In this document: positions 12,205 to 64,000 of the stretch, piece by piece
Layout of the letters: the number at the start of each line of letters is the position of its first letter
Position numbering within the stretch: position 1 is the first letter of the stretch
Origin: Cetorhinus maximus
Taxonomy: Eukaryota
Direction of reading: 5' to 3'
Length of the DNA stretch: 64,000 bases
Assembly: GCF_964194155.1 (NCBI RefSeq)
Contig: NC_135901.1
Location: 14,322,001-14,386,000, forward strand
Notes under the pieces: model-generated
What the model was told of the DNA's origin: nothing
Databases searched by the model: none
What the model saw: only the letters and a program-made list of their open reading frames with translations
Made by a program: the position numbers and the translations under genes

Positions 12205-12681
12205 ATGGGAATCCTCTTTGTTTTCACCCTGTGTGTCTGTTTACCCTGTGAGTACCGATCAAACAAAGCGACATTGTGTGGATTTAATATAAAGCTGCCC
12301 GAGTCTATCCCAATTACAGACATTGTCTGGGGTTTTAACCCAGTTCTGTAGTTCGGCTCCAAGGGTCCATTAATCTCTCTCTGTTCAATTTCCAGGCTCT
12401 TTCAGTCAGTCAGTGGTGCAGACCCCGGCAGCGGTGACCAGGAAGGAGTGTCAGTCTCTCACGATCACCTGTGTTTTCTATGGTGGTTTATTCGCTCGTC
12501 CTTTGACGGGCGGGTATTTCTTCAGACAAACCCAGACCGGGACAGAGTGGGAGCGGATCTCCAGCGGGGGGAGATTTGTTGTGTCGGTGAATAAAGCAGA
12601 AAAGACATTTTGGCTGGAAATTCGGGATGTGAGAGTTGAAGACACCGCCACCTATTACTGTAAAGCTGAGTATGACACACA
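12205..12681 (+). CDS. NTCRV: NAR-TCR V segment 1 (leader exon 12205-12247, V exon 12396-12681)
   Basis: Leader MGILFVFTLCVCLP, gtgagt...ttccAG phase-1 intron, then QSVVQTPAAVTRKECQSLTITCVFYGGLFARPLTGGYFFRQ...ISSGGRFVVSVNKAEKTFWLEIRDVRVEDTATYYCKA. VNAR-like (CDR2 deleted) with extra FR1 Cys. RSS CACAGTG-22-ACAAAAACT at 12682-12719. Confidence 0.93.
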
Positions 12682-13045
12682 CACAGTGATGGGCCTCGGC
12701 TTCCCGCGATACAAAAACTCTCACTGCAGATTATCACAGAAACAAATGAAAAACCGGAGTTAATCTGCAGTTAAACCCCCACAGTTCCGCCTCACACCGT
12801 CTGCCCCACAGTCTAGTTTATAATGAGATTAGATTATTGCCGTTAACATCTTGAGTTTTATAAGTGCCGAGTGTGTGCGGATGCTGATGTCTTCCTGAGA
12901 TTGGTGTCAGTGAATGGGGATTGAGAATAACTGATCCCAGTAACAAACCCCTAACACTAGATGTGACCCCGGTCTTACAGGTGGAACAGGGAACCGCAGT
13001 CCCCGCTGTTTAACTAATGTCCCCACATCTCACCAAGTAAGCGGG

Positions 13046-13119
13046 GGATTTTATACTGACTTGTAACACTGTGTGGGTGGATGGGGAAAGTCACAGTGGG
13101 AGAGACCTGAGTAAATACC
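13046..13119 (+). other. NTCRD: NAR-TCR D segment 1 (13074-13091) with 12/12 RSSs
   Basis: GGATTTTAT-12-CACTGTG [TGGGTGGATGGGGAAAGT] CACAGTG-12-GTAAATACC. Confidence 0.88.
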
Positions 13120-13473
13120 TCACCACGATCACAATATAAATTCTCCGGGCCCGGATAGTGAATTGTCGGGTTGATGTAATTTTCGCTGTTATCTGGTTAC
13201 ATTTCATTGTAATTTCCATCATCCAGTTATCTTTCTTTGATATTTTTCTCGGTTTATATGAAGCGTATATCTCGTTCCGGGGATCATTTACTCAGAGCTC
13301 AGGGCCTCACAAAGAACACTTTGACTGGACAGAGACTTGGAAACATTCAATATTGTTTATTTATTTAAATCTAATGAATAATTGGGCAGTTTCTACTGTC
13401 TGATGATGATTTCCCGGCAAGTCGAGGTGTCGGTGGTTGTTGTACCGGGAAGACTGAGAGCGGTGTCACTGTG

Positions 13474-13526
13474 GTGGGAGACTAAATATCCGGATGGATC
13501 CGGGACGGTGGTGACTGTCACAGCCG
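13474..13526 (+). CDS. NTCRJ: NAR-TCR J segment 1
   Basis: GGTTGTTGT-23-CACTGTG at 13435-13473; WETKYPDGSGTVVTVTA; phase-1 donor G|GTAAG. Confidence 0.92.
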
Positions 13527-14459
13527 GTAAGTAGCTCCAAAACCCTCCGGTTGCAGCCTGTCCCGGGTAATGTTCACCGTCATTTTATTATTGAGATTAG
13601 TTTAGTTTAGGTGGGATGTGGGAGTTCTCAGAATCTGGGCCAGTATTGGTTTAACGGGCACATCGGGGACAACAACAACATCACGGACTCTCACACTCTG
13701 AGTCGCTTTTAATGAGCGGAGATTATCGACAATCCGGACTCCACTCCCGGTGTTAACTGTGACCGAGGGAGCTCTGTCTGTCCCTTAGAGCCCGGGAGCG
13801 GGGTCACAGAGCTCTCTCCTGGGCAGCAGATTGCAGTCCGAGCCGCGCAATGCGAATGAGGCACCGGGTGAATAAACTCAACTTAACTGCGGCCAATTCG
13901 GATACCTGCAGCGGCTCGTTCAATAACTGACCCGGGAGAAAAACGGGAGAGTGATACAAGGGACTTCAGATATAAGACACCCTGATGTGGGTCCAGGTGG
14001 AATTTTATTATTGGACAATCAGTGACTGAAATTAGTGACATTGTCCCCGCCATTTCTTTCAATTGTCCTCATAAAACCAATCACTTTCCTCCGTTTCCAC
14101 CCTCAGACCGAAATGTGAAAGTTTAGAACTGCAGACACTTCTCTATATTGAATGTAAATGTTTGAGAGATGGGATTGCTGTAATTTATCTGTATCACTGA
14201 TTACTGTGAATTGAAACAACACAGAGTAGGGAGAGTGTGAGGATGATGTATTAATCTTATAAAGGAGAACAGGGACATAAGGGAACAAGCACAAACTAGG
14301 AGAATGCTCATTTAGAACCAGCAAGAAAAAAATAATCGAAAGGGAGAGAAGGATTGGATGATTTCTGGGCGCATTTCAAAGTACAATCCGACTCGGTGTT
14401 GGGGGAGGTTTATGGAGGGAAGGACTGAAATGGACTCCAGTCCGGAATGCTGTGTAAAG

Positions 14460-14975: not shown

Positions 14976-16579
14976 ATTGGATTCTTTGCCTTGATTTCTT
15001 ACACTCCTGAGTAAAGAAATGAGCAACAATCCACATCTCTCTGGGAAGATTGAACAGGCTGGGTCTCTTTTGTCTGGAAAACAGAATCACGGGGAATATC
15101 CATAGAAATCGTTTCAATAGTGAACAGTTTTAGGCTGGACAAATTGAGTCTAAAGCAATAGCCGTTAACATATGACTGTAACTAACAGAACGAATAAAAC
15201 ATTTAAGACAAATGCATTGAAACCAAGGCAGATCAGATTGTGGAACTTGCTGCCTCAGGGAGTGGTTGGAGATAGTGTTGATATATTTAGTGGAACACTT
15301 GAAAATACAGGAGGGAGAACGGAACAGACCAACACAGGGAGCTGGGTGGAAATGGTCAATTAGATTTCGGGTGGGGTCAGGCTGGAATTGATTATATACA
15401 CAGGCTGAATGACCCATTCCTCTTCCTCATTCTTCTTCCTCCATAATGTAAAATTGAGAGAAAACTCCGCCCAGTGAACCCGGGAGAGGATCAGTCAATG
15501 AGCGGAAAGCGTTGAAATTGTCAGAGAGCCGAAAGAGGCAGTTCCCAGTGAGTAACAGTAAAACCACTGAGGAAATTGAACAGACTGAGCCCAGTCGACA
15601 ACTTAAAGACTTTGGGCCAAGTTACCACGATTGCAAAAAGTGCAAACAGCACAAAGAAATAAAAGGAACGTGAAATTAAAGAAATAAAATGAAATTAATT
15701 GCACATATTTCAAATCAAGCTGAACTGGAGAAAATAGGACACTATTGATAGAACATAGAGAAATTGCGCAGAAGGCAGATAGAAATTCCCGAGTAGTTTT
15801 AAACCGCAGGAAATGATAGACCTTTGACCACTGATGCTCACTCTCGGTTTTGCCCAATCGGTGCTGATGATTCCCATCAGTTTGTGTTGGATCTTGCTGT
15901 GCACAGTCATTCCTCTTCCGCATTCTTCTTCCTCGATAATGTAAAATTGAGAGAAAACTCCACCCAGTGAACCCGGGAGAGGATCAGTCATTGAGTGGAA
16001 AGCGTTGAAATTGTCAGAGAGCCAGAAGAGGCAGTTCCCAGTTCATGCAACACAGCTGCGTTTCTCTCGAACAAACATGTTTTTTTTTGGAAGCTGATAG
16101 CCTCGCTGAACATAAAATACACCCTCGTGTTTGTGTCTCACCAAGGAAAATAGAAACGGGAATGTAATATAATTAATGGAATCATACGGCATGGAATGAT
16201 GACATTCGGTCCCTCGTGTAGGCGCTGACCCTTTAAAAGCGCAATTCAATTGTTCCCACTGCCCATGAATTTTCTCCACAGCTCTATATTTGTATTTACA
16301 TTTCCAGTATAGATCCATTACCCGTTTGAAAGTTACAATGGAACCTGTACCCAACACCAATTCAGACAGTGCAGTCCTAATCGGAAGAGTTCGCCATGTA
16401 AAATAAGATATCACCTCCTTCCCCACTGGATCATATTTTCATAAGAGTGAACACGGTTCAAACAGGCTTCCAGCAAGTAAAATTACTGCAAAAAGCAGAG
16501 CTATTCACGCGATTGACATATTCACCTGGACAAACAGTGGTTGAACAAAAATAAAATGTTCTTATTCTACATCCTCCAG

Positions 16580-16885
16580 ATTCCAGTTCCATAATTTCCA
16601 GGAATCCGCCTGAACAAACCTCTGCTGCCGGTGACACCGTTACATTAAGATGTGAATATTCAGGGTTCTGTCCGTTCACAGTACACTGGTATCGTCAGTC
16701 CCCAGGACAGGCTCCGGAATATCTGCTTCAGAGACACACTTCAGGAGAGGAGAATAAAGAAAAGGCTGCCGGGGGGAGAATTTCTGCTTCTATCGATTCT
16801 GCCGAGAAAATCAGCCGGTTAGATATCTCCAAACTACAACTGAGCGACTCCGCTGTGTATTACTGTGACCTGAGTCGCCGCACAG
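16580..16885 (+). CDS. TRDV: Supporting TCR-delta V 1 (leaderless, intact)
   Basis: Acceptor cctccAG, phase-compatible with J1; DSSSIISRNPPEQTSAAGDTVTLRCEYSGFCPFTVHWYRQSPGQAPEYLL...GRISASIDSAEKISRLDISKLQLSDSAVYYCDLSRRT. Extra CDR1 Cys; no leader exon found. Confidence 0.92.
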
Positions 16886-17048
16886 CACAGTGAAACAGAG
16901 CAGGGAGAGAGCCGTACAAAAACCTCAACATGGTGGGATTACAGACACACAGTGATACAGAGCACGGAGAGAGCTGTACAAAAACCTGAACATGGTGGGA
17001 TTACAGACACACAGTGATACAGAGCATGGAGAGAACTGTACAAAACCT
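16886..17048 (+). promoter_or_regulatory. Three tandem 23-RSSs (62-bp period)
   Basis: CACAGTG at 16886, 16948 and 17010, each followed by 23 bp and then ACAAAAACC, ACAAAAACC and ACAAAACCT. Confidence 0.93.
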
Positions 17049-17054
17049 GAACAT

Positions 17055-19480
17055 GGTGCTTGCACACGAACAGGTGAGTGACCTCATCCTGAGTGAGGCA
17101 CGGCCAGAGTCAGTGTGGGTACTGGCAATTTGGTGCACAGTGGGAATTGAACTGGTAAGTCCTTCTCTTTAAGTTCTCTTAATTTTTGTAACTACAGTGG
17201 TCTAGTTAAAGGGTTGGTAAGAGAGCTGATGCAACTGACGGTGTGACAGTTATCTGTCAATCACCTGATGCCTGATTAGGGACTTAATAGGTGTTGATTA
17301 GTATTTGAAGCATAACTAGTGTGAGTCATCTCAGCTCATCTCAGCTCTAATTAAGAAAGAGACAATTAAAAGCACACTACAGTGTGCTTGCACAAGAGCA
17401 GGGGAGAGACCTCATCCTGAGGGAGACACAGCCAGAGTGTGTGTGGCTATTGGCAATTTGGAACAGTGCGAATTCGGCTCAGAGGGGAGGAGGTGCTCTC
17501 TGCATTTTATCTTTGCTATCCAATTTATTAAATCTTCTGAGTGTGGCCTTGCCCTGCTGCAGCAGTAGAGGCTACAAGGGAAAGGAATGACTGGTAAGTA
17601 GTGGATAAGGTCGGGATGTATTTACAACTTTAATCGCTTGTAGTTTAAGGACTTTTTGTGGTTTGTAGTTTGTATAATCTGTAGTAACGAGGATCAGGAA
17701 AGAAGGGCCCGAGGGTAATTGATTTAAAAGGTTTAATTTAAAGGGATATAACATGGCAAGAGAGCTCAATGCCGTCATGTGCTCCTCGTTCTCCATGTAG
17801 GAAACCGGCAACATTTCCAGTGCCCAGAACCAGCATGTGTGCAGAAATTGTGTCCAGCTGCAGCTCCTGGAATCTTGGGTTTCAGAGCTGAAACGGCGGC
17901 TGGGGACACTGTGGAGCACCTGCGAGTCTGAGAGCATCGTGGACAGCACGTTTACAGAGGTGGTCACACAGCAGCTGAAGGGACTTGAGGAAGGAAGGGA
18001 ATGGGTAGTCCCAGGTAATCCAAGAGCAACAGGCAGGGAGTTGAGGAGCCCCCTGGGGTCCCGTTCGCAAATTGGTATTCCATTTTGGAGGCTGATGAAG
18101 GCGCTGCTTCCTCCAGGGAGTGCAAACAGAACCAAGCTTCTGACACCACAAGCAGCCTGTCTGTACAGGAGGGGAGGAAGAGAGGATGAACAATAGTAAT
18201 AGGGGATTCTATAGTCAGGGGGACAGATAGGCGCTATTGTGGCCGTCAACGTGTCTCTAGGACGGTGTGTTGCCTCCCTGGTGCCAGCCTCCGGAATGTC
18301 ACTGAACGCCTGCATGGCATCCTGAAAGGGGAGGGGGATAAATTAGAGGTCATGGTACATGTTGGTACCAATAACTTAGGTAGAAAGGGCGACGATGTCT
18401 TGCATCAAGAAATCAGGGAGTTAGGCAGTAGACTAAAAAGCAGGATCTCTCAGGTTGTAATCTCTGGGTTACTCCCAGTGCCACGTGCTAACAAGACCAG
18501 GAATAGGAGAATAGCGCAGATAAATACGTGGCTTAAGAGTTCGTGCAGGAGGGAGGGTTTTAGATTCCTGGAACACTGGGAATGTTTCTGGGGAAAGTGG
18601 ACCTTTACAAGCCGGATGGTCTACATCTGAACCATAGCGGAACTAACCTCCTTGCGGGCGGGTTTGCCAGTGCTGTTGGAAGTACTTTAAACTAATTCGG
18701 CAGGGGGAGGGGACACACAATGTTAGAAGAATAGGCACGCATCAGAATAAGTAATACATTCAAGTCAGAGGGAGAACCACTGCATTAAGCTTCAAGGGAG
18801 TAAGGCAAGGCTGGATGGCCTCTACTTTAATGCCAGGAATATTACAGGTAAAACAGAAGACTTAAGGGCGAGGGTTGACACGAGGAATTCTGATTTGGTA
18901 GCCATCATTGAGACGTGGTTGAGGGAGAGTCAGGATTGGCAGCTCAACATTCCGGGATATAGGATCTTCAGGCGAGACAGGGGTGAGGGCAAAAGAGGAG
19001 GAGGCGTTGCATTATTAGTTAAAGAGTCTGTTACTGCAGTGAGGAGAGATGCTATCTTGGAGAGGACATCGAATGAAGATTTGTGGGTAGAGTTTAGGAA
19101 TAAAAAAGGGGCAACCACATTATTAGATGTTTCTTATAGGCCCCCAGATAGTCAGCGGGATATTGAGGAGCAAATATGTGCGCAAATTGCGGAAGTATGT
19201 AAAAACAATAACAATAGGATAATTATATTAAGTGATTTCAACTTTCACAACATTAATTGGGATAGACAGAGTGTTAAGGGCTTGGATGGAGTGGATTTCT
19301 TGAAATGTGTACAGGAGAGCTGTTTAGGTCAATATGTAGAGGGTCCAACAAGGGACGGCGCAGTGCTGGACCTAATTCTGGGGAATGAATCCGGACAGGT
19401 GGCTGAGGTGGTGGTGGGGGAGCATTTTATTGATAGCGACCGCAACATGGTACAATTCAAGCTTGTTATGGACAAAGAAA
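17055..19480 (+). mobile_element. CR1 LINE 5' half: putative 5'UTR, disrupted ORF1 (Zn finger + SGNH esterase) and ORF2 APE endonuclease; no RT
   Basis: ORF1 from ATG 17753 (CRNC; IVIGDSIVRG...CCLPGA...VHVGTNN); ORF2 FNARN...VAIIETWL...SDFN...LDLILGN; stops and frameshifts present. Confidence 0.87.
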
Positions 19481-19944
19481 GAGAAATAGTGTCGGGTTGG
19501 TCGCTTGGGATAGTGACCTTCATAAAGAGATGTGCTTCCCCTCACTCCCTCCCCGGAGCGGAAGAAGCTGATCGTCTTCAGAGAACTAATCGGTTCAGAC
19601 GTGAACTCTGGAAGAAATGAGCAGCGGCCCAGCAACCCGCCTCCTTCTATCCGGTGAACAGTATCAATTTCCAGCCAGTTAGGAGCGGGAAAAATAAACA
19701 CGTGATGTAGACCTTGCATATCCATCATTGACTTTAATCAGTCAACATTTTTATCTCTTCACCCGGTTCCTTTCTTCTGTTGTGAGTTGTGTCCCGTTTT
19801 CGTATTGACATTCTCATAGCAAACATGTGTTCTGTTGCACAGCTAAAGCTATTATCCGTCATTCTGGAGATGCAAACAAGTAGCCACAGGACAGTGACCC
19901 AATGACCCAGAGAAAATTTTACACTATTAATCTCGTTGTTCCAG

Positions 19945-20301
19945 TGTTGCATATCCTGAATATTCTTCCATTTCGATGTCTCTCGGCCCGTGTGCTTTAA
20001 TCTCCCGCTTAGAAAACAGCCCAGGACGGGGTTTCGTTGCAGATTGACTGCAGCTACGAGTTGTCCGACTTCTACGTGATGCATTGGTACAGACAGAAAT
20101 CCGGTCAGGGACTGGAGTGGATTATAAGGCAGATATCGACTGGCAAAGAGAGGAGCGGACGATTTGAGCCGAATCTTTCCGAGTCGCAGAAACGCGGCCA
20201 ATTTGCTCATTGCAGACACGGGGAACGCCGATGCCGCGGTTTATTACTGTGCGGCTAAGCCCCACACCTAGACAAAACGCGGCAGTCACTGTAAAAAAAC
20301 C
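19945..20301 (+). pseudogene. TCR alpha/delta V pseudogene (unit 1)
   Basis: IDCSYELSDFYVMHWYRQKSGQGLEWII, frameshift, ANLLIADTGNADAAVYYCAAKP; degenerate RSS CACACCT-23-AAAAAAACC. Confidence 0.85.
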
Positions 20302-21319
20302 TCGCTTCCGGTTACAGTTCCGGGATTGCGGCAGCAATCTCTCTGATAGAACATGGCGAGCCAGGAGGCTCAGAGCATGAACAGCTAACGGGAGAGACGG
20401 GCCGGGCTGCCGCGGGTTGTCTAGTGGATCCTAATGGAGAGGATATTTCATCAGAGATACTGACGGTCACGGCAGAGAGTGTCGGACTGAGGGGGCAGTT
20501 AGTCAGTGCGGTCTTTGCTACGTGGGGAGCCTCCTTGTCTGATTGTGTCCCAGGGAACCGAGAGAGATCCTGAATGCTTAATTTGTGCCGTTGTGTGACG
20601 ATTCTTAAAGAACATTAATATAATTAAACAGTAAAACCCGCCCTTTAACTGAAATGTCCGCAATGTGGGCATATTCACTCTGCTCGCAAATTGTGGCCAA
20701 ATAGTTATTTAAAAGAATGCGCCTGCGATTGTCCTCCGGGTGATATTTTCCCCTCCTCTCTTGTGACTCGCAGCAGAAAGTTAACCAAATTCGACACACA
20801 AACAGAAAATGCTGGAAATACAACCAGAAACAGAGTGAAGGTTCCAGTCTGTGACCTTTCACCAGAAATCTGCAACTCCTCAAACTGAGTTCAGATGAAA
20901 TGTCACGGACATGAAACCTTTTTTCTGATTCGCTCTGCATCGATGCTTTCTGACCTGCCATAATTTTCTGTTATTATAACCCAACAGTATTTGCAATGGA
21001 GCATAATAGCTGATCATTCGGCTCCTTTCTGATGGCAGAGCCCTATCAAGGGAGAATCAGTAGCCATTCTCATTTCTAAATAGCTCTGCGTCATGAGTCA
21101 CTTGCAGGACAAACCATTTGTGAGACTGGTGGGATTTCATGACAATTGGCAACGATTTACTATTGTACAAATAACTCCAGGTTTTTATTGAATTGAAATT
21201 CCACGAATTGATGTTGTGTAATTCGAACCAGGGATATCATTCTGTGGTGTTCGATTGGTGTGCAGTGACAATACCCCTTCGCCACTTCCTCTCCCTTCAC
21301 CGAGTAAGAAGCAGAAAGG

Positions 21320-22253
21320 TTGAGGTGTGTGTTTGATTCCGGAAGTGCCCAGCAATGCGTAGATTGCTAAAGGCGCGTGTGTGTGTGTGTGCGCGCGCGC
21401 GCGTGTGTGTGTGCGTGTGTGGGTGTCACATTCCTGAAGTGCCCACCGGAGGGCTGATTTCTAAAGGTGTGTGTGCTGCGTGTGCCTGTGTGTTTGTGTG
21501 TTTGTTTGTTTGTGCGTGTGTGTGTATGTATGTCTGTGTATGTGTGTGCGCGTGCGTATGTATGTGTGTGTGTGTGTGTGTATATGTGTCTGTATGTGTG
21601 TATTATGACATTGTCCAGCAGAGGGTAGATTGCTGACGTTACGTTTGTGGCTGTGTGATTCCGGCAGTATTCAGCAGAGGGCAGATTGAAAAATTTTGTG
21701 TGTGTGTGTGCGTGTGTGTATGTGTGATTCCAGCAGTGCCCAGCAGACGGAAGATTTCCAAAGGTGTGTGTGTGCGTGATTATGACAGCGTCCAGCAGAG
21801 GGTAGGTTGCTAAAGCGTATATGTGTGTGCGTATGTGTGTGTTTCTGTGTTTCTAAGTATGTGTGTGATTCTGACTGTCAAGCAGAGGGTGGATTACTGA
21901 CGCTGTGCGTGTGTGTGTGTGTGTGTGCGTGTGTGTAAGAGAGAGAGAGAGATTCCGGCATTGTCCACTAGAGGGCAGATAATAATGTTGTGCGTGTGTG
22001 TCTGTGTATGTATGTGTGTTTGCATGAGTGTGTGCTTGTGTGTGTTTGTGTGTTTGTGTGTGATTGCGTCAACGTCCAGCAGATGGAAGATTGGTAAAAG
22101 TGTGTGTGTGTGTCTGTGTGCATGTAGTTATGACAATGTCCAGCAGAGGGTAGATTGCTAAAGGTGTGTGTTTGAATGTGTGTGTGTATGCGTGTGTGTG
22201 TCTGTGATTTTGGCAGTGGCCAGCAGAGGGTAAATTGTGAAAGGTGTGTGCAT

Positions 22254-22291
<38 letters not shown>

Positions 22292-22328
22292 TTCCAGCAG
22301 TGTCCAGCAGAGGGTAGATTGCTAAAGA

Positions 22329-22359
<31 letters not shown>

Positions 22360-22399
22360 ATGTGATCGCGGCAGTGTCCATCAGAGGGTAGATAGCTAA

Positions 22400-22440
<41 letters not shown>

Positions 22441-22899
22441 TGTGTGTGTGAGAGATTCCGGCAGTGTCCAGCAGAAGGTAGATTGCTAAAATTGCGTGTG
22501 TGAGATTATGACACCATACAGCAGAGGGTAGATTGCTTAAGGTGTGTGCGTGTGTGTGATTATCACAGTGTCCCGCAGAGCTAAAACTTTGTGTGTGTGA
22601 GTGCGCGTGTGTTTGTGTATGTGATTCCGGCAGTGTCCATCAGAGGGTAGATTGCAAAAGGTGTGTGTGTGTGTGTGTGTCTGTGTGTGATTGCGGCAGT
22701 GTCCAGCAGAGGGTAGATTGTAAAAGGTAAGTGTGTGTGATTATGACACTGTACAGCCGAGGGTAGATTGCTTAAGGTGTGTGTGTGTGTGTGATTGTGT
22801 GAGATTCCGGCAGTGTCCAGCAGAAGGTAGATTGTCTAAATGTGTGTGTGTTTGTGTGTGTGTGATTATGAAAGTGACCAGCAGTGGTTAGATTGCTTA

Positions 22900-22943
<44 letters not shown>

Positions 22944-23054
22944 TAATGACAGTGTCCAGCAGAGGGTAGATAGCTAAAGTTGTGTGTGAGTGTGTGTGTG
23001 TGTGTGTGTGTCTGCGCCCGAGCGCGGCGTGTGTGTGTGATTCCGGCAGTGTCC
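21320..23054 (+). repeat. Minisatellite: about 22 monomers GATTCCGGCAGTGTCCAGCAGAGGGTAGATTGCTAAAG separated by (TG)n
   Basis: Counted by eye; the core resembles the CTCF motif. Confidence 0.9.
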
Positions 23055-23346
23055 AGCACAGCAGCAAATGGCGATGTCGAATTGAAGGGCCGCATTAATA
23101 TTAAGGGAACCCTTTCGTTTTCTTCGTGTAAAACAGCAGACGCCATGACTGGGACATGTGGAAACATGTACCCCATCACCGAGCGCCAATACTCAGTGAA
23201 CATCTCAGAGCTTCCAAGCGATAGTGGAGGTGGTGAAACAGAATTGACGGAGGTTGGCGAGTAACCACAGTGCAGTGATATCAAGGGCAATTCACAACCC
23301 CTTAATTCTGAATGTTGTTCAGAACCTGAATCTTCGCCATTTCTTC
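23055..23346 (-). pseudogene. Highly degenerate TCR alpha/delta V relic (unit 1)
   Basis: Acceptor ttgtctttcAG, GRNGEDS...ISLHCGYS, then in another frame GSLNINAALQFDIAICCCA (decayed DxAxYYCA); no RSS, the minisatellite begins at the CDR3 position. Confidence 0.65.
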
Positions 23347-50711: not shown

Positions 50712-53633
50712 GTAAGTGACACCAAAACTCGCCGGGTTATAACCTGCCCTGGGTAATGTTCACCGTCAGTTTATTGTTGATATCAGTGGAGTTTGGGCAG
50801 GATGTGCGATTTGACGGAATCTGGACCATTATTGGTTTAACGGGCACATCGGGGACAACATTAACACCACGGACTCTCACACTCTGAATCGCTTTTAATG
50901 AGCAGAGATTGTCGACAATCCGGAATCCACTCCCGGTGTTAACTGTGACCGAGGGAGCTCTGTCTGTCACTTAGAGCCCGGGAGCGGGGTCACAGAGCTC
51001 TCTCCTGGGCAGCAGATTGCAGTCCGAGCCGCGCAATGTGAATGAGGTACCGGGTGAATAAACTCAGCACAACTGAGGCCAGTTCGGATACCTGCAGCGG
51101 CTCGTTCAATACCTGACCCGGGAGAAAAACGGGACAGTGACACAACGGACTCCAGGTATAAGAAATCCTGATGTGGGTCCAGATGGAATTTTATTATTGG
51201 ACAATCAGTGACTGAAATTAGTGACATTGTCCCCGCCATTGCTTTCAATTGTCTTCAAATTACCAATCACTTTCCTCCTTTTCCGACCTCAGATAGAATA
51301 GTGGAAGTCTGGAACTGCAGACACTTCTCTATATTGAATGTTGATACTTGAGGGATGGGATTGCTGTAATTTATCTGAATCCCTGATTACTGTGAATTGA
51401 AACAACACAGTGCAGTGAGAGAGTGAGGATGATGCATTCATTTTATAAAGGAGAACAGGAACTTTAGGAAACAATTATAAACTGGGGGAATGTTCATTTA
51501 GTATCAGCAAGAAATACTTCATCGCAAGGGAGAGAATGGTTGGGTGATTTCTGGGCACCTTTCAAAGTGCAATCCGACCCCCTGGTTGGTGAGGTTTATG
51601 GAGGGAGGGACTGAAATGGACTCTGGCCCGGAATGCTGTGGAATGTTTTGTTCTCCTTACAGAAGAGAGATCAATCTGCATTGGAAGGAGTGCAACAAAG
51701 GTTCATCAGACTGATTTCTGAGACGAAGGCATTGGTCAATGAGCAGAGATTGAATAGTAGAGCTCTACATTTCCTAGAGTTTAGAAGACTGAGAGGTGAT
51801 CATGACAAGGCAGATTCTGGGTCGCTGATTCCCCAGGCTGAGCAGTATATATAACTCGGGGTCAGAGTTTCAGAATAAAGGGTCATCCCTTGGAACTGAG
51901 AAGGAAAAAATGTATTCAGTGGAACCATTGTTATGAATCTGCAGCATTCTGTAACTCAGAGAGCGGTGGATGTTCAGTATCTGTGTGTTTGTAAGGCAAT
52001 ATTCAATAGATTTGCGGACACTAAAGGGATCAGGGATATGGGGAGAGTGCCGGAATGCGACGTTGAGGTTGTAAATCAGCCAGGATATTACTGAATGGCT
52101 GAGCAGGTTTGAAAGGTGATCTGGCGGCTCCTGTTTCTATTGATTGGATTCTCTGCTTTGACTTATTGCACTCCTGAGTAAATAAATCAGCAACAATCCA
52201 CATGTCTCTGGGAAGGTTGAACAGGCTGAATCTCTTTTCTTCTGGAAAATAGAGAACCACGAGCTTCCATGAAGATTTAATAGATTTTTTTTTAAATAAT
52301 GAACGGCTTTAATGTGGAGAAATTGTTTATTTGTGGCTGAGTCCAGGGCAATGGGCCATCAACATATGACAGTCAATAAAGAACAAATAAAAAACATTAA
52401 GACAAATAAATGTAAACAAAAAAAAATCAGCATGTGGAACTTGCTGCCGCATGGAATGGTTGGAGCAGGCAATATTGATGTATTTATTGAAACACTTGAA
52501 AATACAGGAGGGAGAAGGGAACAGACCGGCAGGGGGAGCTGGAGGGAAATGGTCAATTCGATTTCGGGCGGGGTCAGGTTGGAATGGATTATCAACACAG
52601 GTTGTATGGCCCATTCTTCATCCGCATTCTTCTTCCTTTAAAGTGCGAAATTCAGAGAAAGCTCCGCCCAGAGAACGCGGAGAGAATCAGTAAATGGGCG
52701 GAAAGAACTGAAATTGTCAGAGAGCCGGAAGAGGCAGTTCCCAGTGAGTCACAGTAAAACCACAGCGGAAACTGAACAGACTGAACCCAACCGACAACTG
52801 GGATGCTTTGGGACAATTTCCCACGATTGGAAGAACCACAAAAAGCAGAAAGTAAATGTGAAATAAAGGGAATGTGAAATAAAAGAAATAAAATGGAATT
52901 ATATGTCAAGTGAGCTCAACTGCAGAAAATTAGACTCTTTTGAAAGAACATAGAGAAACAGAGCAAAAGGCAGATAAAAATTCCACAGCAGTTTGAAACC
53001 GCAGTGAATGATTAGCTTTTGACCACTGACGTTCACTCTCTGTTTGGCCAAATCAGTGCTGATGAATTCCATCAGCTTGTGTTGGATCTTGCTGTGCGCA
53101 GTGATTCCACACAGCTGTGTTCATCTCCGGCACATATTGTTTTTGGAAACTGGCTCCTCGCTGATCATAAAATGTTCCCTCGGGTTTGTCTCTCACCCAG
53201 GAAAATTGAAACGGGATTGAAATTTAATTCATTGAATTATCCAGCACGGAAGGATGACATTCGGCCCATCGTGTAGGCGCTGACCCTTTAAAAGTGCAAT
53301 CCCATTGTTCCCACTGCCCATGAATTTTCTCCATAGCTCTGTATTTTTATTTACATTTCCAGCACAGACCCATTACCCGTTTGAAAGTTACAATGGAATC
53401 TGTTCCCAAGACCAATTCAGACCAAGTGCAGCACCGATCGGAAGAATTCGCCCTGTAAAATAAAATATCACCTCATTCCCCACTTGATCATATTTTCATA
53501 ACAGTGAACACGGTTCAAACAAGCTTCCAGCAAATAAAATTACTGCAAGAAGCAGAGCTATTCACGCGATTCAATTCACCTGGACAAACAGTGTCTAAAC
53601 AAAAAGATAATGTTCATTTTTTTTATCCTCCAG

Positions 53634-53974
53634 ATTCCCGTTCCATAATTTCCCGGAATCCACCTCTACAAAACTCCGCTGCCGGTGACACCGTTACTTT
53701 AAGCTGTGGATATTCGGGGTTCTGCACAGTGCACTGGTGCCGTCATTCCCCAAGGACAGGCTTGGGAATACCTGCTCCAGTGACACACCTCAGAAGAGGA
53801 GAATAAAGAAAACGCAGCCGGGGGGAAGAATTTCTGCTTCTATCGATCCTGCCGAGAAGATCATCCGGTTAAGAATCTCCAAACTGCAACTGAGCGACTC
53901 CGCTGTGTATTACTGTGCACTGAGTCGTCGCACAGCACAGTGATACAGAGCACGGTGAGAGCTGTACAAAAACC
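53634..53974 (+). pseudogene. TRDV: Supporting TCR-delta V 4 pseudogene with an intact first 23-RSS
   Basis: 302 nt versus 306: 6-nt CDR1 deletion, two +1 insertions and a TGA. RSS CACAGTG-23-ACAAAAACC at 53936-53974; second heptamer at 53998 has no nonamer. Confidence 0.88.
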
Positions 53975-60620: not shown

Positions 60621-61289
60621 GCCCCTGATTCAATGGTGGAATCGACCAATCATGGTGCTGTGACTGATGGAAAGTGTTGGGGAGCCGTCGATTCCCATGG
60701 GAAAACTTCCATTAGCTTTGTGAAACGTGCATTTAACAATGTTTGTGGGTCGTTCACGCTTCATAAGTGCGGCCGTTTATTTAGATAGGAAGGCCTTATT
60801 TTAACAGGGAGCACTGTCGAGGTGCGCATATTCTCACCCAGTGCAGCGCGGCCCTTGAACACATAGGGGCCTTTCCCAGCTGCGGTAATTGTGGGAGATG
60901 CTGACCTCCATGGAAAGATCATTGGTAGGTTGAATCCAAACCCAAACTCCCCCTCAGCTGGGAGTTCCCGGTCACTTGGTGCAAGAGACTGCGGGTTCTC
61001 TTGGGCGGAGGGAGTTTCTCGTTCGATTCTAGCCCGAGTCCTGGAAATCGCAGGAGATGGTGAAGGTCTCTACGGATTGAACAAAAAAAAGGGAAATAAA
61101 CGAATTGGCTGATACCTGAGGAAAAAGGCGGCAATACATTTACCCTAAATTATGAATTGGTCCATAATCAATGTTTCCAGGAAAAGGGAGATGAGAATGT
61201 GGAATAATTTCATGAACGATATTTGAAGACGAATTGCACAGGAGAGGATATTAAGAATGATCCATGTGTCTGCAATCCCACCATGTTCA

Positions 61290-61390
61290 GGTTTTTGTAC
61301 AGCTAACTCCGTGCTCTGTATCACTGTGTGTCTGCAATCCCACCATGTTCAGGTTTTTGTACAGCTCTCTCCGTGCTCTGTATCACTGTG
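61290..61390 (-). promoter_or_regulatory. Two tandem perfect 23-RSSs (62-bp period)
   Basis: GGTTTTTGT-23-CACTGTG at 61290-61328 and at 61352-61390. Confidence 0.93.
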
Positions 61391-61696
61391 CTGTGCGCCG
61401 AGTTAGGTGACAGTAATACACAGCGGAGTCGCTCAGTTGTAGTTTGGAGATATTTAACCGGCTGATTTTCTCGGCACGATCGATAGAAGCAGAAATTCTT
61501 CCCCCGGCAGCGTTTTCTTTATTCACCTCTCCTGAAGTGTGCCTCTGCAGCAGATATTCCGGAGCCTGTCCTGGGGACTGACGGTACCAGTGTACTGTGT
61601 ACTGACAGAACCCTGAATATTTACATCTTAAAGTAACGGTGTCACCGGCAGCAGAGGTTTGTAGAGGCGGACTCCAGGATATCAGGAACCTTGGAT
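61391..61696 (-). CDS. TRDV: Supporting TCR-delta V 5 (leaderless, intact, inverted)
   Basis: Acceptor cttccAG; DPRFLISWSPPLQTSAAGDTVTLRCKYSGFCQYTVHWYRQSPGQAPEYLL...DSAVYYCHLTRRT; 306 nt. Flank 61.7-63.4 kb is the inverted homolog of the J to supporting-V intron. Confidence 0.92.
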
Positions 61697-64000
61697 CTGG
61701 AAGTTGAAAAATGGACATTATGTGTTTGTTTTGCTACTGCTGACATGGGAGATTTGTCTATCGCGCGAACAGCTTTGTGTTTTTTTTTATATTGATTTGA
61801 AGCCTATTCGAACGCTGCTCATTGTTACTGAAATATGATCAACTGGGGAATGAGGTGATATTTTGTCTTCAGAGCGAATTCCTCCGATCAGGACTTCACT
61901 ATCTGAATGGGTTTTGGGAATAGATTCAATAGTAACTTTCAAACGGGTAATGGATCTGTTCTAAAACTGAAAAAATGCAGTACTATGGGGAATATGCATG
62001 AGTGGAGGGAACAATTGGATTACACTTTTAAAGGGACAGCACCTACACGATGGGCCGGATGTCATCCTTCCGCGCTGTATCGTTCTATGATGTATATTAA
62101 ATTTGTTTTTTTTTCCCCGGTGAGAGACGTTCCCGAGGGAACATTTTATTAACAGTGACACAGCCACTTTCCAAAATGTATTTATCCGACAGTAACGTAG
62201 CTACTTTGCATCACTGCGCACAGCAAGATCCATCAGAAAGCGATTGCAATTGGTCAGCACCAATCGGGTCAAACAGATGGTGAATGTCGATGGAGAAATG
62301 TCACCCATTAACTTCAGTTTAACACTTCTCAGGAGTTTCCATCTGCCTTTGGGCCTTTTAGACTATTTTCTTTGGTCAATGTAGTTTTTTCCCCATTTCT
62401 CTTTTATTTGACATATTTAAAGTTAGTTTCATTTCATTTCTACATTTACTTTGTCCCGTTTGTGCTTCTTGCCATCGTGGGAACTTGTCCCAAACTCTCT
62501 CAGTTGTCGGTTGGGCTCAGCCAGTTCAGTTTCCGCAGTGGTTTTACTGTTACTCACTGGCAACTGCCTCTTCCGGCTCTCTGACAATTTCAATTCTTTC
62601 CGCCCATTGACTGATTCTCTCCGCGTTCTCTGGGCGGAGTTTTCTCTAAGTTTTTCGTTGTACTCAATCTGCAGGAGAGGGACCGGCCATTCGGCACAGT
62701 GATTTATGTTGTGTGTACAATCCATACATGTCTCCCTAACCCGAAATCTAATTGACCATTTCAATCCAGCTCCCTGTGCTGGCCTGTTCCGTTTTCCCCC
62801 CTGTATTTTCAGCCTTCCCATAAATCCATCAATAAGGTCTGCTCCAACCACTCAATGTGGCATCAAGTTCCACATTCTGACGCTTCTTAGCGTATAATTT
62901 TCTTCTTAATGTCTGTGCTCTGTTAGTGACGATCTGATATTAATGTCCCACTGACCTGGACTCACCCACAAATATACAGCTGCACCACATGCACTCTATT
63001 AAACCCGTTCATAATTTAAAAGATTTCTTTGAATTGTCCTCCGGGTTCTCTGTTTCCCAGAGTAAAGTGACCCAGCCTGTTCAATCTTTCCAGAGAGATG
63101 TGCATTTTTGCTGATTTCCATTCTCAGAAATTTAAGACATCAATGCAAAGAATTTTACAAATATAAGCAGGAGTGAACATAACAACTTTCAAACCTGCTC
63201 CGACGCTCAATAATATCGTGGCTGATCTTCTACTTCAAGATCACATTCCCATCTTCATAGATTCTTTTCATAACCAAAAACCTGCCTTGAATACATTCAT
63301 CCACTGAGTATCCACACATCTCTGAGCTGTAGAATGCCACACATTCACAGCAATGGTTTGACTGAAGAAACTTCTCCTCTCCTCAGTTCTAATGGCCGAC
63401 CCCGAATTTTGAAACTGTTACCCTTTGTTATAGCCTGGGGAGGCACCCCCCAGAATCTGCCCTGTCAGCCTGTTGAGAATAAGATATGCTGTAATGAGAT
63501 CAGCTCTCATTCCTCTAAACTACAGCTACGAAATTATAATAAATTTTAAAATATTTTTCAGTTTTATTGTGCAGTAGATTTATGGGTTTAAATAGAGTTG
63601 GTTCTGTCTGTGTGATTTAATTACATTTGGGATCAAGTACACTGCAAGCTTGAAATTATCGAACGAAGCAATGCGTTGAAATGTGCTTGAAATGCTAATG
63701 AGTAAACATGAATGCTGGCTTAACATGTAAGGAGTGCAGGGAATTTAGGTTTCAATGGGACATTAGTCTGTTTACAACTAGCCAGATAAGCAAGGCTGAG
63801 GAGTGAGTTTTAATTTGCCCCAAAGGTTATCAGCAATATTGACAATATAATATTTTTTTATTATGAGGAAGGCACAGTTTTAAAGGTATGTGGAACAATA
63901 ACATTTACATACTAAAGAGCGATAAACATATATAGAGGAGAATGAAAGGCTATGTGAGGAGTGGGCCATGTAAGATCTGACAGGAATATATGAAACATCC

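What the first reader, a model, noticed from the sequence alone, without database searches (positions are those of the whole stretch)
21320..23054. Arrays of about 20 co-oriented CTCF-motif-like monomers between cassettes (candidate insulator or super-anchor)
Seen: the monomer (TGT)GATTCC-GGCAGTGT-CCAGCAGAGGGTAG is repeated about 22 times in one orientation with (TG)n spacers, once per unit (21.3, 33.7, 45.8 kb), and about 6 times inverted at 11.0-11.3 kb. Known: the CTCF core is CCASYAGRKGGCRS. Most monomers differ by one C to T, and CCACTAGAGGGCAG (21965, 34324, 46458) matches fully. TGTGATTCC resembles the CTCF upstream module at plausible spacing. In mouse, clustered CTCF elements (Igh 3'CBEs, IGCR1, Tcra/d INT1-2) restrict RAG scanning. 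Inference: each array sits between a supporting V 23-RSS and the next cassette's D 12-RSS, so it could confine V-D-J joining within a cassette.
Basis: partly seen in the sequence, partly recalled or inferred. Interest (0 to 1): 0.75.

Follow-up and report, generated by a model that had tools for sequence, protein, structure and literature searches.

The report
CTCF-motif arrays between shark receptor cassettes
Between the repeated gene cassettes of a shark T-cell receptor locus lie runs of about twenty same-direction copies of a likely binding site for the chromosome-folding protein CTCF, which may fence off each cassette during gene rearrangement as similar site clusters do in mammalian antibody genes, but no binding or function has been shown.

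Summary
The arrays are real. In a shark NAR-TCR (TCR delta) locus, a 38-bp monomer spaced by (TG)n occurs 23, 23 and 14 times on the + strand and 5 times inverted. It scores as a moderate CTCF core (14.2 bits, p 5e-6, recalled matrix; 17 of 21 full monomers in array 1 pass 1e-4). None of 20,000 shuffles and none of six other repeats in the window score so. A partial upstream module sits at the canonical spacing. The off-consensus T at core position 12 is tolerated in mouse: 15 of 17 such VH sites lie under ChIP peaks. Selection on the motif is not shown (p 0.07-0.08), the three + arrays are copies of one, and an intact cassette lacks a forward array. Best reading: a CTCF-bound, forward-facing anchor upstream of NAR V-D-J that keeps its D from the previous cassette's V segments. 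It cannot be a strict fence, since the supporting V must join outside the cassette. Closest known: human IGH VH CTCF 'hot spots'. Untested; interest moderate.

The parts
21326..23058 (+). Array 1: 21 full CTCF-like monomers, one deleted copy, one terminal half copy; (TG)n/(GA)n spacers, start-to-start 50-172 bp, median 76
   Evidence: 17 of 21 at p<1e-4 and 9 of 21 at p<1e-5
33685..35421 (+). Array 2: recent duplicate of array 1 (about 0.8% different), 23 copies
45830..46921 (+). Array 3: shorter, more diverged copy, 14 visible copies, N run at 45945-46096
10970..11310 (-). Inverted array: 4 full monomers at a 56-bp period plus 1 degenerate copy (a sixth remnant by eye); same core consensus, different upstream part
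   Evidence: best copy 14.2 bits
21962..21980 (+). Best site of array 1 (full consensus core, 17.8 bits, p 5e-7); copies with cores starting at 34324 and 46458
11502..11795 (-). Decayed V pseudogene with a degenerate 23-RSS, about 230 bp from the inverted array and co-oriented with it
   Evidence: no Pfam hit; not detectably homologous to the 20-kb pseudo-V
12207..13530 (+). Cassette 1 NAR-type V (leader, V exon, 22-spacer RSS), D with 12-RSS on both sides, J with 23-RSS; open frames; no forward array upstream
16555..17048 (+). Supporting TCR-delta-type V of cassette 1 with three tandem 23-RSSs at a 62-bp period (copies at 28918-29411 and 41240-41733)
   Evidence: the label 'supporting V' is recalled
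17800..19620 (+). CR1-like LINE fragment (esterase-type ORF1 and endonuclease) carried in each unit
   Evidence: Pfam hits on the unit-2 copy; family label recalled
20013..20301 (+). Frameshifted TCR-type V pseudogene with 23-RSS, 1,086 bp upstream of array 1; heptamer near consensus only in the unit-2 copy (32622)
24696..26020 (+). Cassette 2 NAR-type V, D and J; ATG 1,646 bp and D left 12-RSS 2,489 bp downstream of array 1 (copies at about 37.1-38.4 kb and 49.4-50.7 kb)
6395..6427 (+). Single strong CTCF-like site (19.0 bits) whose upstream 9 bases equal those of the inverted monomer in the same register
2023..2056 (-). Single CTCF-like site, weak core (8.1 bits) with an 8/10 upstream module at the longer spacing, 2.3 kb downstream of a co-oriented V segment (4333-4758, -)
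61290..61733 (-). Inverted supporting V with two 23-RSSs; the tail-to-tail junction at 54-61 kb carries no array

Best explanation
The array is a minisatellite-amplified cluster of medium-strength CTCF sites, co-oriented with the V genes, that is copied along with the NAR-TCR cassette. Shown: the anatomy, the matrix score, and a spacing (median 76 bp) that would let most sites be occupied at once given a footprint of about 70 bp. Inferred: (1) shark CTCF binds several monomers, so that many medium sites add up to a strong cohesin stop; (2) facing right, the array is the left anchor of a loop that holds the next NAR V-D-J and supporting V; (3) it thereby impedes RAG working from the NAR D-J from reaching the previous cassette's 23-RSSs 5-9 kb upstream, which are 12/23-compatible with the D's left RSS in deletional orientation and would replace the NAR V; (4) like forward VH-region sites in mammals it is a leaky, developmentally relaxable anchor, not a wall, so the supporting V can still join TCR delta D-J elsewhere. 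Odds: monomer binds CTCF about 0.7; array influences recombination or cassette expression about 0.45.
For: Consensus monomer 14.2 bits, p 4.9e-6; 46 of 68 window hits at p<1e-4 fall in 4,974 bp of arrays (recalled JASPAR matrix). 0 of 20,000 shuffled monomers reach 14.1 bits; six other repeats in the window reach at most 1.1 bits. The match to the upstream consensus peaks at the canonical offset (8 nt; best of 13 offsets) in both monomer families, 4.6/10 mean and 6/10 (consensus and 5-bp linker from PMC12885311). Upstream contacts matter most for intermediate cores (PMC10287918). Core plus upstream motif is conserved from lamprey to human (PMC5504073), and shark CTCF has 11 fingers (PMC7471279). 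T at core position 12: 15 of the 17 such mouse VH sites that my text search found overlap CTCF ChIP-chip peaks, against 111 of 144 overall (PMC6746451 tables S1 and S5, my cross-count). Human IGH has co-oriented hot spots of up to 50 sites in 2.1 kb. An engineered 20-site array altered Igh loops (review PMC7930373). Both array families lie 3' of, and co-oriented with, a V 23-RSS, and the two pseudo-Vs are not detectably related. The one junction with no compatible D downstream (54-61 kb) has no array. No sign of a high-copy satellite: raw-read depth 2.1 in the bin holding the terminal half monomer, against 3,445 in a nearby interspersed repeat.
Against: No binding data. The score is modest (19th percentile of sites sampled from the matrix), and 4 of 21 array-1 monomers miss p<1e-4. 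All 21 have three or more mismatches to the mouse VH motif, so they fail that paper's own criterion, and the A8+T12 combination had 0 text hits in its tables. Selection is not shown: core against flank p 0.068-0.079 after dropping 4 indel-bearing monomers; no gradient with information content (rho -0.09), and variants are no more matrix-friendly than random (p 0.07, 0.15, 0.43); array 1 against array 3 differs 7 of 205 in matrix columns, like the left flank (41 of 1,321). The + arrays are one event copied, so the placement has at most two independent cases. Cassette 1 is intact without a forward array. The array-adjacent flank has about a tenth of the read depth of the NAR V region (0-2.6 against 10-19), so most cassettes in this genome may lack it. 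No second species was shown to hold the array. The upstream match lacks the conserved CA of TGCA in the + family. An unchecked note from this scan reports a CTCF minisatellite at a non-immune gene of a chimaera-like fish, so such arrays need not be immune-specific.
Confidence: 0.47

Rival explanations
1. A neutral compound mini/microsatellite. A 38-bp piece that happened to contain a CTCF-like word (perhaps a captured single site such as the one at 6412) was amplified by slippage and unequal exchange between (TG)n tracts and hitch-hiked in a recent cassette duplication. It may even bind CTCF but has no selected role.
For: The first 11 kb hold several unrelated satellites. Copy number varies freely (23, 23, 14, 5). 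No significant constraint. Intact cassette 1 lacks a forward array, and the flank is under-represented relative to NAR V. The consensus carries off-consensus bases that selection has not corrected, and only 1 of 21 monomers is a full match.
Against: A chance core of this score is rare (0 of 20,000), and a partial upstream module sits at the right offset in both families. The least-changed 14-column window of the monomer starts at core position 1, tied with positions 2 and 3. The two families share the core consensus but differ in 3-4 of 11 upstream bases. Both are placed 3' of and co-oriented with V RSSs.
Confidence: 0.33
2. CTCF-bound, but serving transcription and not RAG: an enhancer-blocker or barrier that shields the NAR V promoter 1.6 kb downstream from the LINE fragment and pseudogene upstream, or a promoter-side anchor that loops the cassette to the TCR delta enhancer, as the 'upstream' class of VH sites and protocadherin promoter sites may do.
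For: The array ends 1,646 bp before the NAR V ATG, within the range of the mouse 'upstream' class (within 8 kb of a leader). The upstream module is tied to enhancer blocking, and tandem copies raise it. NAR V, D and J lie within 0.8 kb, so their joining may not need scanning at all.
Against: The inverted array has no promoter downstream of it; cassette 1 has an intact leader without a forward array; no expression data were obtained (one search gave no RNA run with more than 0.09 of the words).
Confidence: 0.14
3. A recombination-prone (TG)n tract that drives cassette duplication, or a field of cryptic heptamers that acts as a RAG decoy; the CTCF likeness is incidental.
For: Long TG runs; 238 CACA words on the minus strand of array 1; array 3 has lost about nine monomers.
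Against: The edges of the near-identical blocks fall at about 16.5-17 kb and 31.8 kb, not in the arrays; no nonamer-bearing RSS was found in the arrays.
Confidence: 0.06

Closest known systems
Human IGH VH-domain CTCF 'hot spots' and mouse upstream/intergenic VH sites (Ciccone et al. 2019, PMC6746451)
   Same: Dense clusters (up to 50 sites in 2.1 kb) in the V region of an antigen-receptor locus, nearly all in one orientation relative to V transcription. The mouse motif shares CCAGCAG and the G run; T at core position 12 occurs there too and is mostly bound.
   Different: Shark TCR delta/NAR-TCR cassette, not a translocon IgH; (TG)n-spaced minisatellite; weaker cores (A at position 8; three or more mismatches to the mouse motif); one array per duplicated cassette, next to a private D-J; no binding data. 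No sequence homology was tested or is claimed.
Mouse Igh IGCR1 (PMC10293834; passages)
   Same: CTCF sites between V 23-RSSs and D 12-RSSs, placed to stop RAG scanning from a J-based centre into upstream V segments.
   Different: IGCR1 is two divergent sites, once per locus, with genetic proof; here about 20 tandem sites in one direction, repeated per cassette, with no functional test.
Mouse Igh 3'CBE super-anchor (PMC10293834, PMC7930373; passages)
   Same: Ten or more consecutive co-oriented sites.
   Different: The 3'CBEs close the locus at its 3' end and face back toward the V region; these arrays are inside the V region and face the same way as the V genes.
Engineered array of 20 CTCF sites in the mouse VH region (described in review PMC7930373; the primary paper was not held)
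   Same: Same size of array inside a V cluster.
   Different: Artificial, and the reported effect is for the inverted orientation; the shark + arrays are co-oriented with their V genes.
CTCF-binding tandem repeats such as DXZ4/Dxz4 (search listing and abstract starts only)
   Same: Tandem repeat that carries CTCF sites and can act as a boundary.
   Different: Macrosatellite with kilobase monomers (recalled) on the mammalian X; no link to V(D)J recombination.

Membership tests
Vertebrate CTCF-binding element | Core motif match above the usual scan threshold | tested here: met
   14.2 bits, p 4.9e-6; 17 of 21 array-1 monomers at p<1e-4 (matrix recalled, column sums consistent); controls
Vertebrate CTCF-binding element | Upstream (finger 9-11) module at a 5-6 bp linker (optional; about 13-15% of sites) | tested here: inconclusive
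   Best of 13 offsets is the canonical one, but only 4.6/10 mean in array 1 and 6/10 in the inverted family; no matrix for this module was available
Vertebrate CTCF-binding element | Binding by CTCF in vitro or in vivo | not testable with these tools
   None of the 24 runs listed showed a ChIP library (most had no library label)
Vertebrate CTCF-binding element | Purifying selection on the core relative to flanks | tested here: inconclusive
   Trend only: p 0.068-0.079; no gradient with information content; no excess conservation between arrays 1 and 3
VH-region CTCF hot spot (Ciccone 2019) | Several sites clustered within 0.1-2.1 kb in a V region | tested here: met
   21 full monomers in 1.7 kb among V segments
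VH-region CTCF hot spot (Ciccone 2019) | Uniform orientation relative to V transcription | tested here: met
   All four arrays are internally uniform and co-oriented with the V segment just 5' of them; that this is the same sense as mammalian 'forward' is recalled
VH-region CTCF hot spot (Ciccone 2019) | At most two mismatches to the VH-CTCF motif, in an IgH locus | tested here: not met
   0 of 21 array-1 monomers have two or fewer mismatches to the mouse motif (the human motif was not scored); the locus is NAR-TCR, not IgH
RSS-associated VH CTCF site | [quoted passage not shown] | tested here: not met
   Nearest monomers lie about 230 bp, 1,086 bp and 4,463 bp from the RSS heptamers
IGCR1-type insulator | Position between V 23-RSSs and D 12-RSSs | tested here: met
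IGCR1-type insulator | Pair of divergent sites | tested here: not met
   All monomers face one way; one opposite-strand hit at p<1e-4 among 46, overlapping a forward site
IGCR1-type insulator | Deletion or inversion changes V usage | not testable with these tools
   needs genetics or repertoire data
3'CBE super-anchor | [quoted passage not shown] | tested here: not met
   Arrays lie between V-bearing cassettes and are co-oriented with V genes; the position of C delta is outside the window
Genome-wide satellite | High copy number away from the locus | tested here: inconclusive
   Only a terminal half monomer (about 30 matching bases) was covered: depth 2.1 against 3,445 for an interspersed repeat in raw reads; short partial matches may be under-counted; no genome held

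The most novel reading that the evidence does not exclude
Sharks confine recombination within receptor cassettes by a portable, self-amplifying insulator: a microsatellite-spaced CTCF minisatellite that is duplicated with each NAR-TCR cassette and acts as a per-cassette IGCR1. CTCF/cohesin control of RAG would then date from the jawed-vertebrate ancestor, and array length and orientation would tune which cassettes are used.
Probability: 0.2. Interest if true: 0.8.

Novelty: new member of a known kind. Interest (0 to 1): 0.5.

Why it matters
Cartilaginous fish usually rearrange within a cluster (PMC12227049), and how that confinement is achieved is open (my knowledge of the field). All CTCF control of V(D)J recombination that I found in print is from mammals. 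A discrete 1.7-kb element with a predicted direction, present at some cassette junctions and absent at others in the same locus, makes the question testable with one band-shift, one ChIP and a repertoire comparison. If real, it extends CTCF-guided receptor assembly to the deepest jawed-vertebrate lineage and shows the same dense V-region clusters arising in sharks and humans. If not, it is one more satellite.

Tried and rejected
Whole-genome scan for the monomer: no genome is held, so genome-wide distribution stays open. Sequencing runs: 4 of 24 listed runs, all organism A, one sample, hold 0.25-0.56 of the array's words (possibly the window's own source, so not independent); 16 runs of other labels hold 0.06-0.14. 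Two of those (X5, X6) were laid on the flank plus NAR V and gave 0 and 1 records, not even on the high-copy repeat (about 39% and 38% of each run read), so their share is probably (TG)n words and is no evidence of conservation. A 23-nt monomer pattern found 0 matches in JGI metagenome contigs. Rfam: 0 matches in 19.5-25 kb. The 96-aa frame at the array's right end gave only one sub-threshold Pfam hit: not a gene. Breakpoint hypothesis: duplication edges are not in the arrays. Shared ancestry of the two V-plus-array placements: the pseudo-Vs align no better than shuffles (score 24 against mean 21, maximum 32). Constraint tests: the first, ungapped count on all 21 monomers looked significant (p 0.025) but included indel-shifted flanks; with 4 monomers dropped it is not, and bases next to microsatellites may mutate faster anyway (recalled). 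Assembly artefact: units differ by 0.2-12% in a mosaic, and contigs of organism A show further diverged copies of the flank, so the repeats look real, though no read spanning a unit junction was examined. Earlier-finding look-ups by sequence, place and words: 6 of 8 returned nothing or failed to match (empty); one search gave loosely related notes. Papers not held: PMC7909615 and PMC7116900. PMC7883824 (passages) gave only a general note on protocadherin site arrays.

Full report
Locus. The window is part of a shark NAR-TCR (TCR delta) region. The V exon at 24.9-25.2 kb is 100% identical to a gene model that the source labels Cetorhinus maximus; 53 relatives among 128 candidates come almost all from sharks and rays, and its closest solved relatives are mostly VNAR domains. 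Each cassette reads: NAR-type V with a 22-spacer RSS, D with 12-RSSs on both sides, J with a 23-RSS, then 3.3 kb on a TCR-type 'supporting' V with three tandem 23-RSSs (label recalled). Between cassettes lie a CR1-like LINE fragment, a frameshifted TCR-type V with a 23-RSS, and the array. The unit is about 12.36 kb and occurs three times; a fourth, 85%-identical cassette follows, then an inverted supporting V at 61.3-61.7 kb. NAR-TCR is known as a doubly rearranging TCR delta with an extra IgNAR-like V (PMC12227049 and PMC6795676, passages). No whole genome is held.

Observation. The 14-nt core has 47 matches with up to two mismatches, all in four arrays, against 0.43 expected. An iterated profile finds 59 monomers (4, 21, 21, 13); nhmmer finds 65 in the arrays (5, 23, 23, 14) and 8 outside, all with E of 2 or more. 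Spacing in array 1 is 50-172 bp, median 76. Arrays 1 and 2 differ by about 0.8% and lie inside a recent duplication whose edges are near 16.5-17 kb and 31.8 kb; array 3 is 4-11% different and shorter. The three + arrays are thus one element copied.

Is it a CTCF site? With the JASPAR MA0139.1 matrix, typed from recall, the consensus monomer scores 14.2 bits (p 4.9e-6; 19th percentile of sites sampled from the matrix) and the full-match copy 17.8 bits. Of 68 window hits at p<1e-4, 46 fall in the 4,974 bp of arrays; the 22 outside (11.5 expected) include copies within the duplicated units. In array 1, 17 of 21 pass 1e-4 and 9 of 21 pass 1e-5. Because the array is one sequence amplified, the fair control is a single monomer: 0 of 20,000 shuffles reach 14.1 bits, and six other repeats in the window reach at most 1.1 bits. 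The upstream module (consensus and 5-bp linker from PMC12885311, passages) matches best at the canonical offset out of 13 tried, but weakly: mean 4.6 of 10 in array 1, 6 of 10 in the inverted family. Upstream contacts count most for cores of intermediate strength (PMC10287918, passages and section 16). Core and upstream motifs are nearly identical in lamprey, chicken and human (PMC5504073, passages), and shark CTCF has eleven fingers (PMC7471279, passages), so the mammalian matrix is a fair proxy. The main blemish, T for C at core position 12, is tolerated in vivo. A text search of the supplement of PMC6746451 found 17 mouse VH sites with that T (a lower bound, as PDF spacing can hide rows), and 15 of the 17 are listed under ChIP-chip peaks (my cross-count of tables S1 and S5), against 111 of 144 overall. 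Those sites have G at position 8, however; the shark's A8+T12 combination had no text hit, and all 21 monomers of array 1 have three or more mismatches to the mouse VH motif.

Is it under selection? Not demonstrably. Parsimony changes among 17 monomers (4 with indels dropped) are 26 in the 19 matrix columns against 39 in 19 flank columns (p 0.068); for the 14-nt core p 0.079. Within the core, changes do not follow information content (rho -0.09), and variants are not clearly matrix-friendly (simulation p 0.074 and 0.146; rank test p 0.43). Between arrays 1 and 3 the matrix columns differ at 7 of 205 positions, the other monomer columns at 13 of 190, the left flank at 41 of 1,321 and the right flank at 21 of 314. 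Every trend points toward constraint; none is significant.

Is it a common satellite? Weakly no. On the flank plus cassette 2 (23016-25700), raw reads of run X21 give depth 2.1 in the bin with the terminal half monomer, 0-2.6 in the unique flank, 10-19 over NAR V-D and 3,445 in a high-copy interspersed repeat; contigs of X1 give 10,106, about 1,000-1,550 and 1.07 million for the half monomer, flank and repeat (the tool warns that summed contig depth is no copy number). This fits a monomer confined to a few arrays, but only about 30 bases of it were covered and the array body was not measured. The same data suggest that the array-adjacent flank accompanies only a minority of NAR V copies. No other species was shown to carry the array.

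Geometry and mechanism. Array 1 starts 4,463 bp after the supporting V's first RSS and 1,086 bp after the pseudo-V's RSS, and ends 1,646 bp before the next NAR V start codon and 2,489 bp before the D's left 12-RSS. The upstream 23-RSSs and that 12-RSS are convergent and compatible, so a join would delete the NAR V. In mouse Igh, cohesin stalls at the next upstream forward site and then reels in downstream DNA (PMC10121685, passages); IGCR1 sites stop RAG scanning from D-J into V, best in their normal orientation, and are relaxed when WAPL falls (PMC10293834, passages). By the usual convention (recalled) the + arrays are forward sites, that is, left anchors. I infer that each array closes the left side of a domain holding the next cassette. 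The spacing allows near-full occupancy given a footprint of about 70 bp. It cannot be an absolute wall, because the supporting V must join D-J segments outside the cassette (recalled). Two further facts fit: the inverted array lies about 230 bp 3' of an inverted, unrelated pseudo-V and faces the same way, and the tail-to-tail junction at 54-61 kb, which has no compatible D, has no array. One fact does not fit a requirement: cassette 1 is intact and has no forward array, though the 23-RSSs upstream of it point away. All steps from binding onward are inference.

Comparison. The closest known element is the human IGH VH 'hot spot': three sites in 100 bp up to 50 sites in 2.1 kb, 174 of 183 human VH sites in one orientation (PMC6746451: passages, sections 10 and 13, supplement file 2 parts 2 and 3 and a search of it; part 1 not read whole). 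The shark array looks and may work like these and sits like IGCR1, but it fails the VH-motif criterion, is not RSS-adjacent, is not a divergent pair and is not a 3' super-anchor. An artificial array of 20 inverted sites altered Igh loops (review PMC7930373, passages).

Novelty. I found no description of CTCF sites at a cartilaginous-fish antigen-receptor locus in searches (listings and abstract starts; 30 of 359, 20 of 95, 12 of 13, 25 of 46, 20 of 45 and 1 of 1 shown); the single paper has one generic mention (PMC8201067). The library lacks most subscription papers, including the main shark TCR locus review, and I did not see the nurse shark locus papers or the shark CTCF ChIP-seq paper or their supplements, which may bear on this. 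Dense V-region CTCF clusters are a known kind; this would be a new, distant member.

Verdict. Real repeat; probable CTCF sites (about 0.7); plausible but unproven role as a per-cassette anchor (about 0.45); neutral satellite remains a serious rival (about 0.33). Interest 0.5.

Noticed in passing
window 16886-17058, 29249-29421, 41571-41743, 61265-61390: The supporting V carries its 23-RSS as a 62-bp tandem repeat: three near-perfect RSSs in a row (two in the inverted copy, one plus a remnant heptamer in cassette 4). This could raise capture by RAG or allow non-productive cuts at the outer signals.
   Followed up: no
window 12682-12719, 25174-25211, 37536-37573, 49878-49915: All four NAR V RSSs have a 22-bp spacer, not 23.
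   Followed up: no
window 6395-6427 and 10970-11210: The strongest single CTCF-like site of the window shares 9 upstream bases, in the same register, with the inverted-array monomer; a single site of this kind may be the seed of the arrays.
   Followed up: partly
window 2023-2056 (-): Weak core with an 8/10 upstream CTCF module at the longer spacing, 2.3 kb downstream of and co-oriented with the V segment at 4333-4758.
   Followed up: partly
window 11795-11797: Homology of cassette 1 to the other cassettes begins exactly where the inverted pseudo-V's 5' part ends, which suggests an insertion or inversion junction that decapitated that V.
   Followed up: no
window 1032-1736, 8973-9505, 9663-10950: Other satellites: a 22-bp repeat (33 copies), two 30-bp arrays and a degenerate TG/GA repeat with a recurring AT-rich word; none resembles a CTCF site.
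   Followed up: partly
window 19000-20500 against 31400-32900: A patch of 2-5% divergence covering the LINE end and pseudo-V inside an otherwise 99%-identical duplication, which suggests gene conversion; only this unit's pseudo-V has a near-consensus heptamer.
   Followed up: no
window 53600-53940: The supporting V of cassette 4 is frameshifted while its NAR V, D and J appear intact.
   Followed up: no
proteins P0002-P0054: NAR V plus supporting V models of about 230 aa occur in 11 named shark and ray species but are named 'uncharacterized', 'immunoglobulin gamma-1 heavy chain-like' or 'TCR alpha-like', never NAR-TCR.
   Followed up: no
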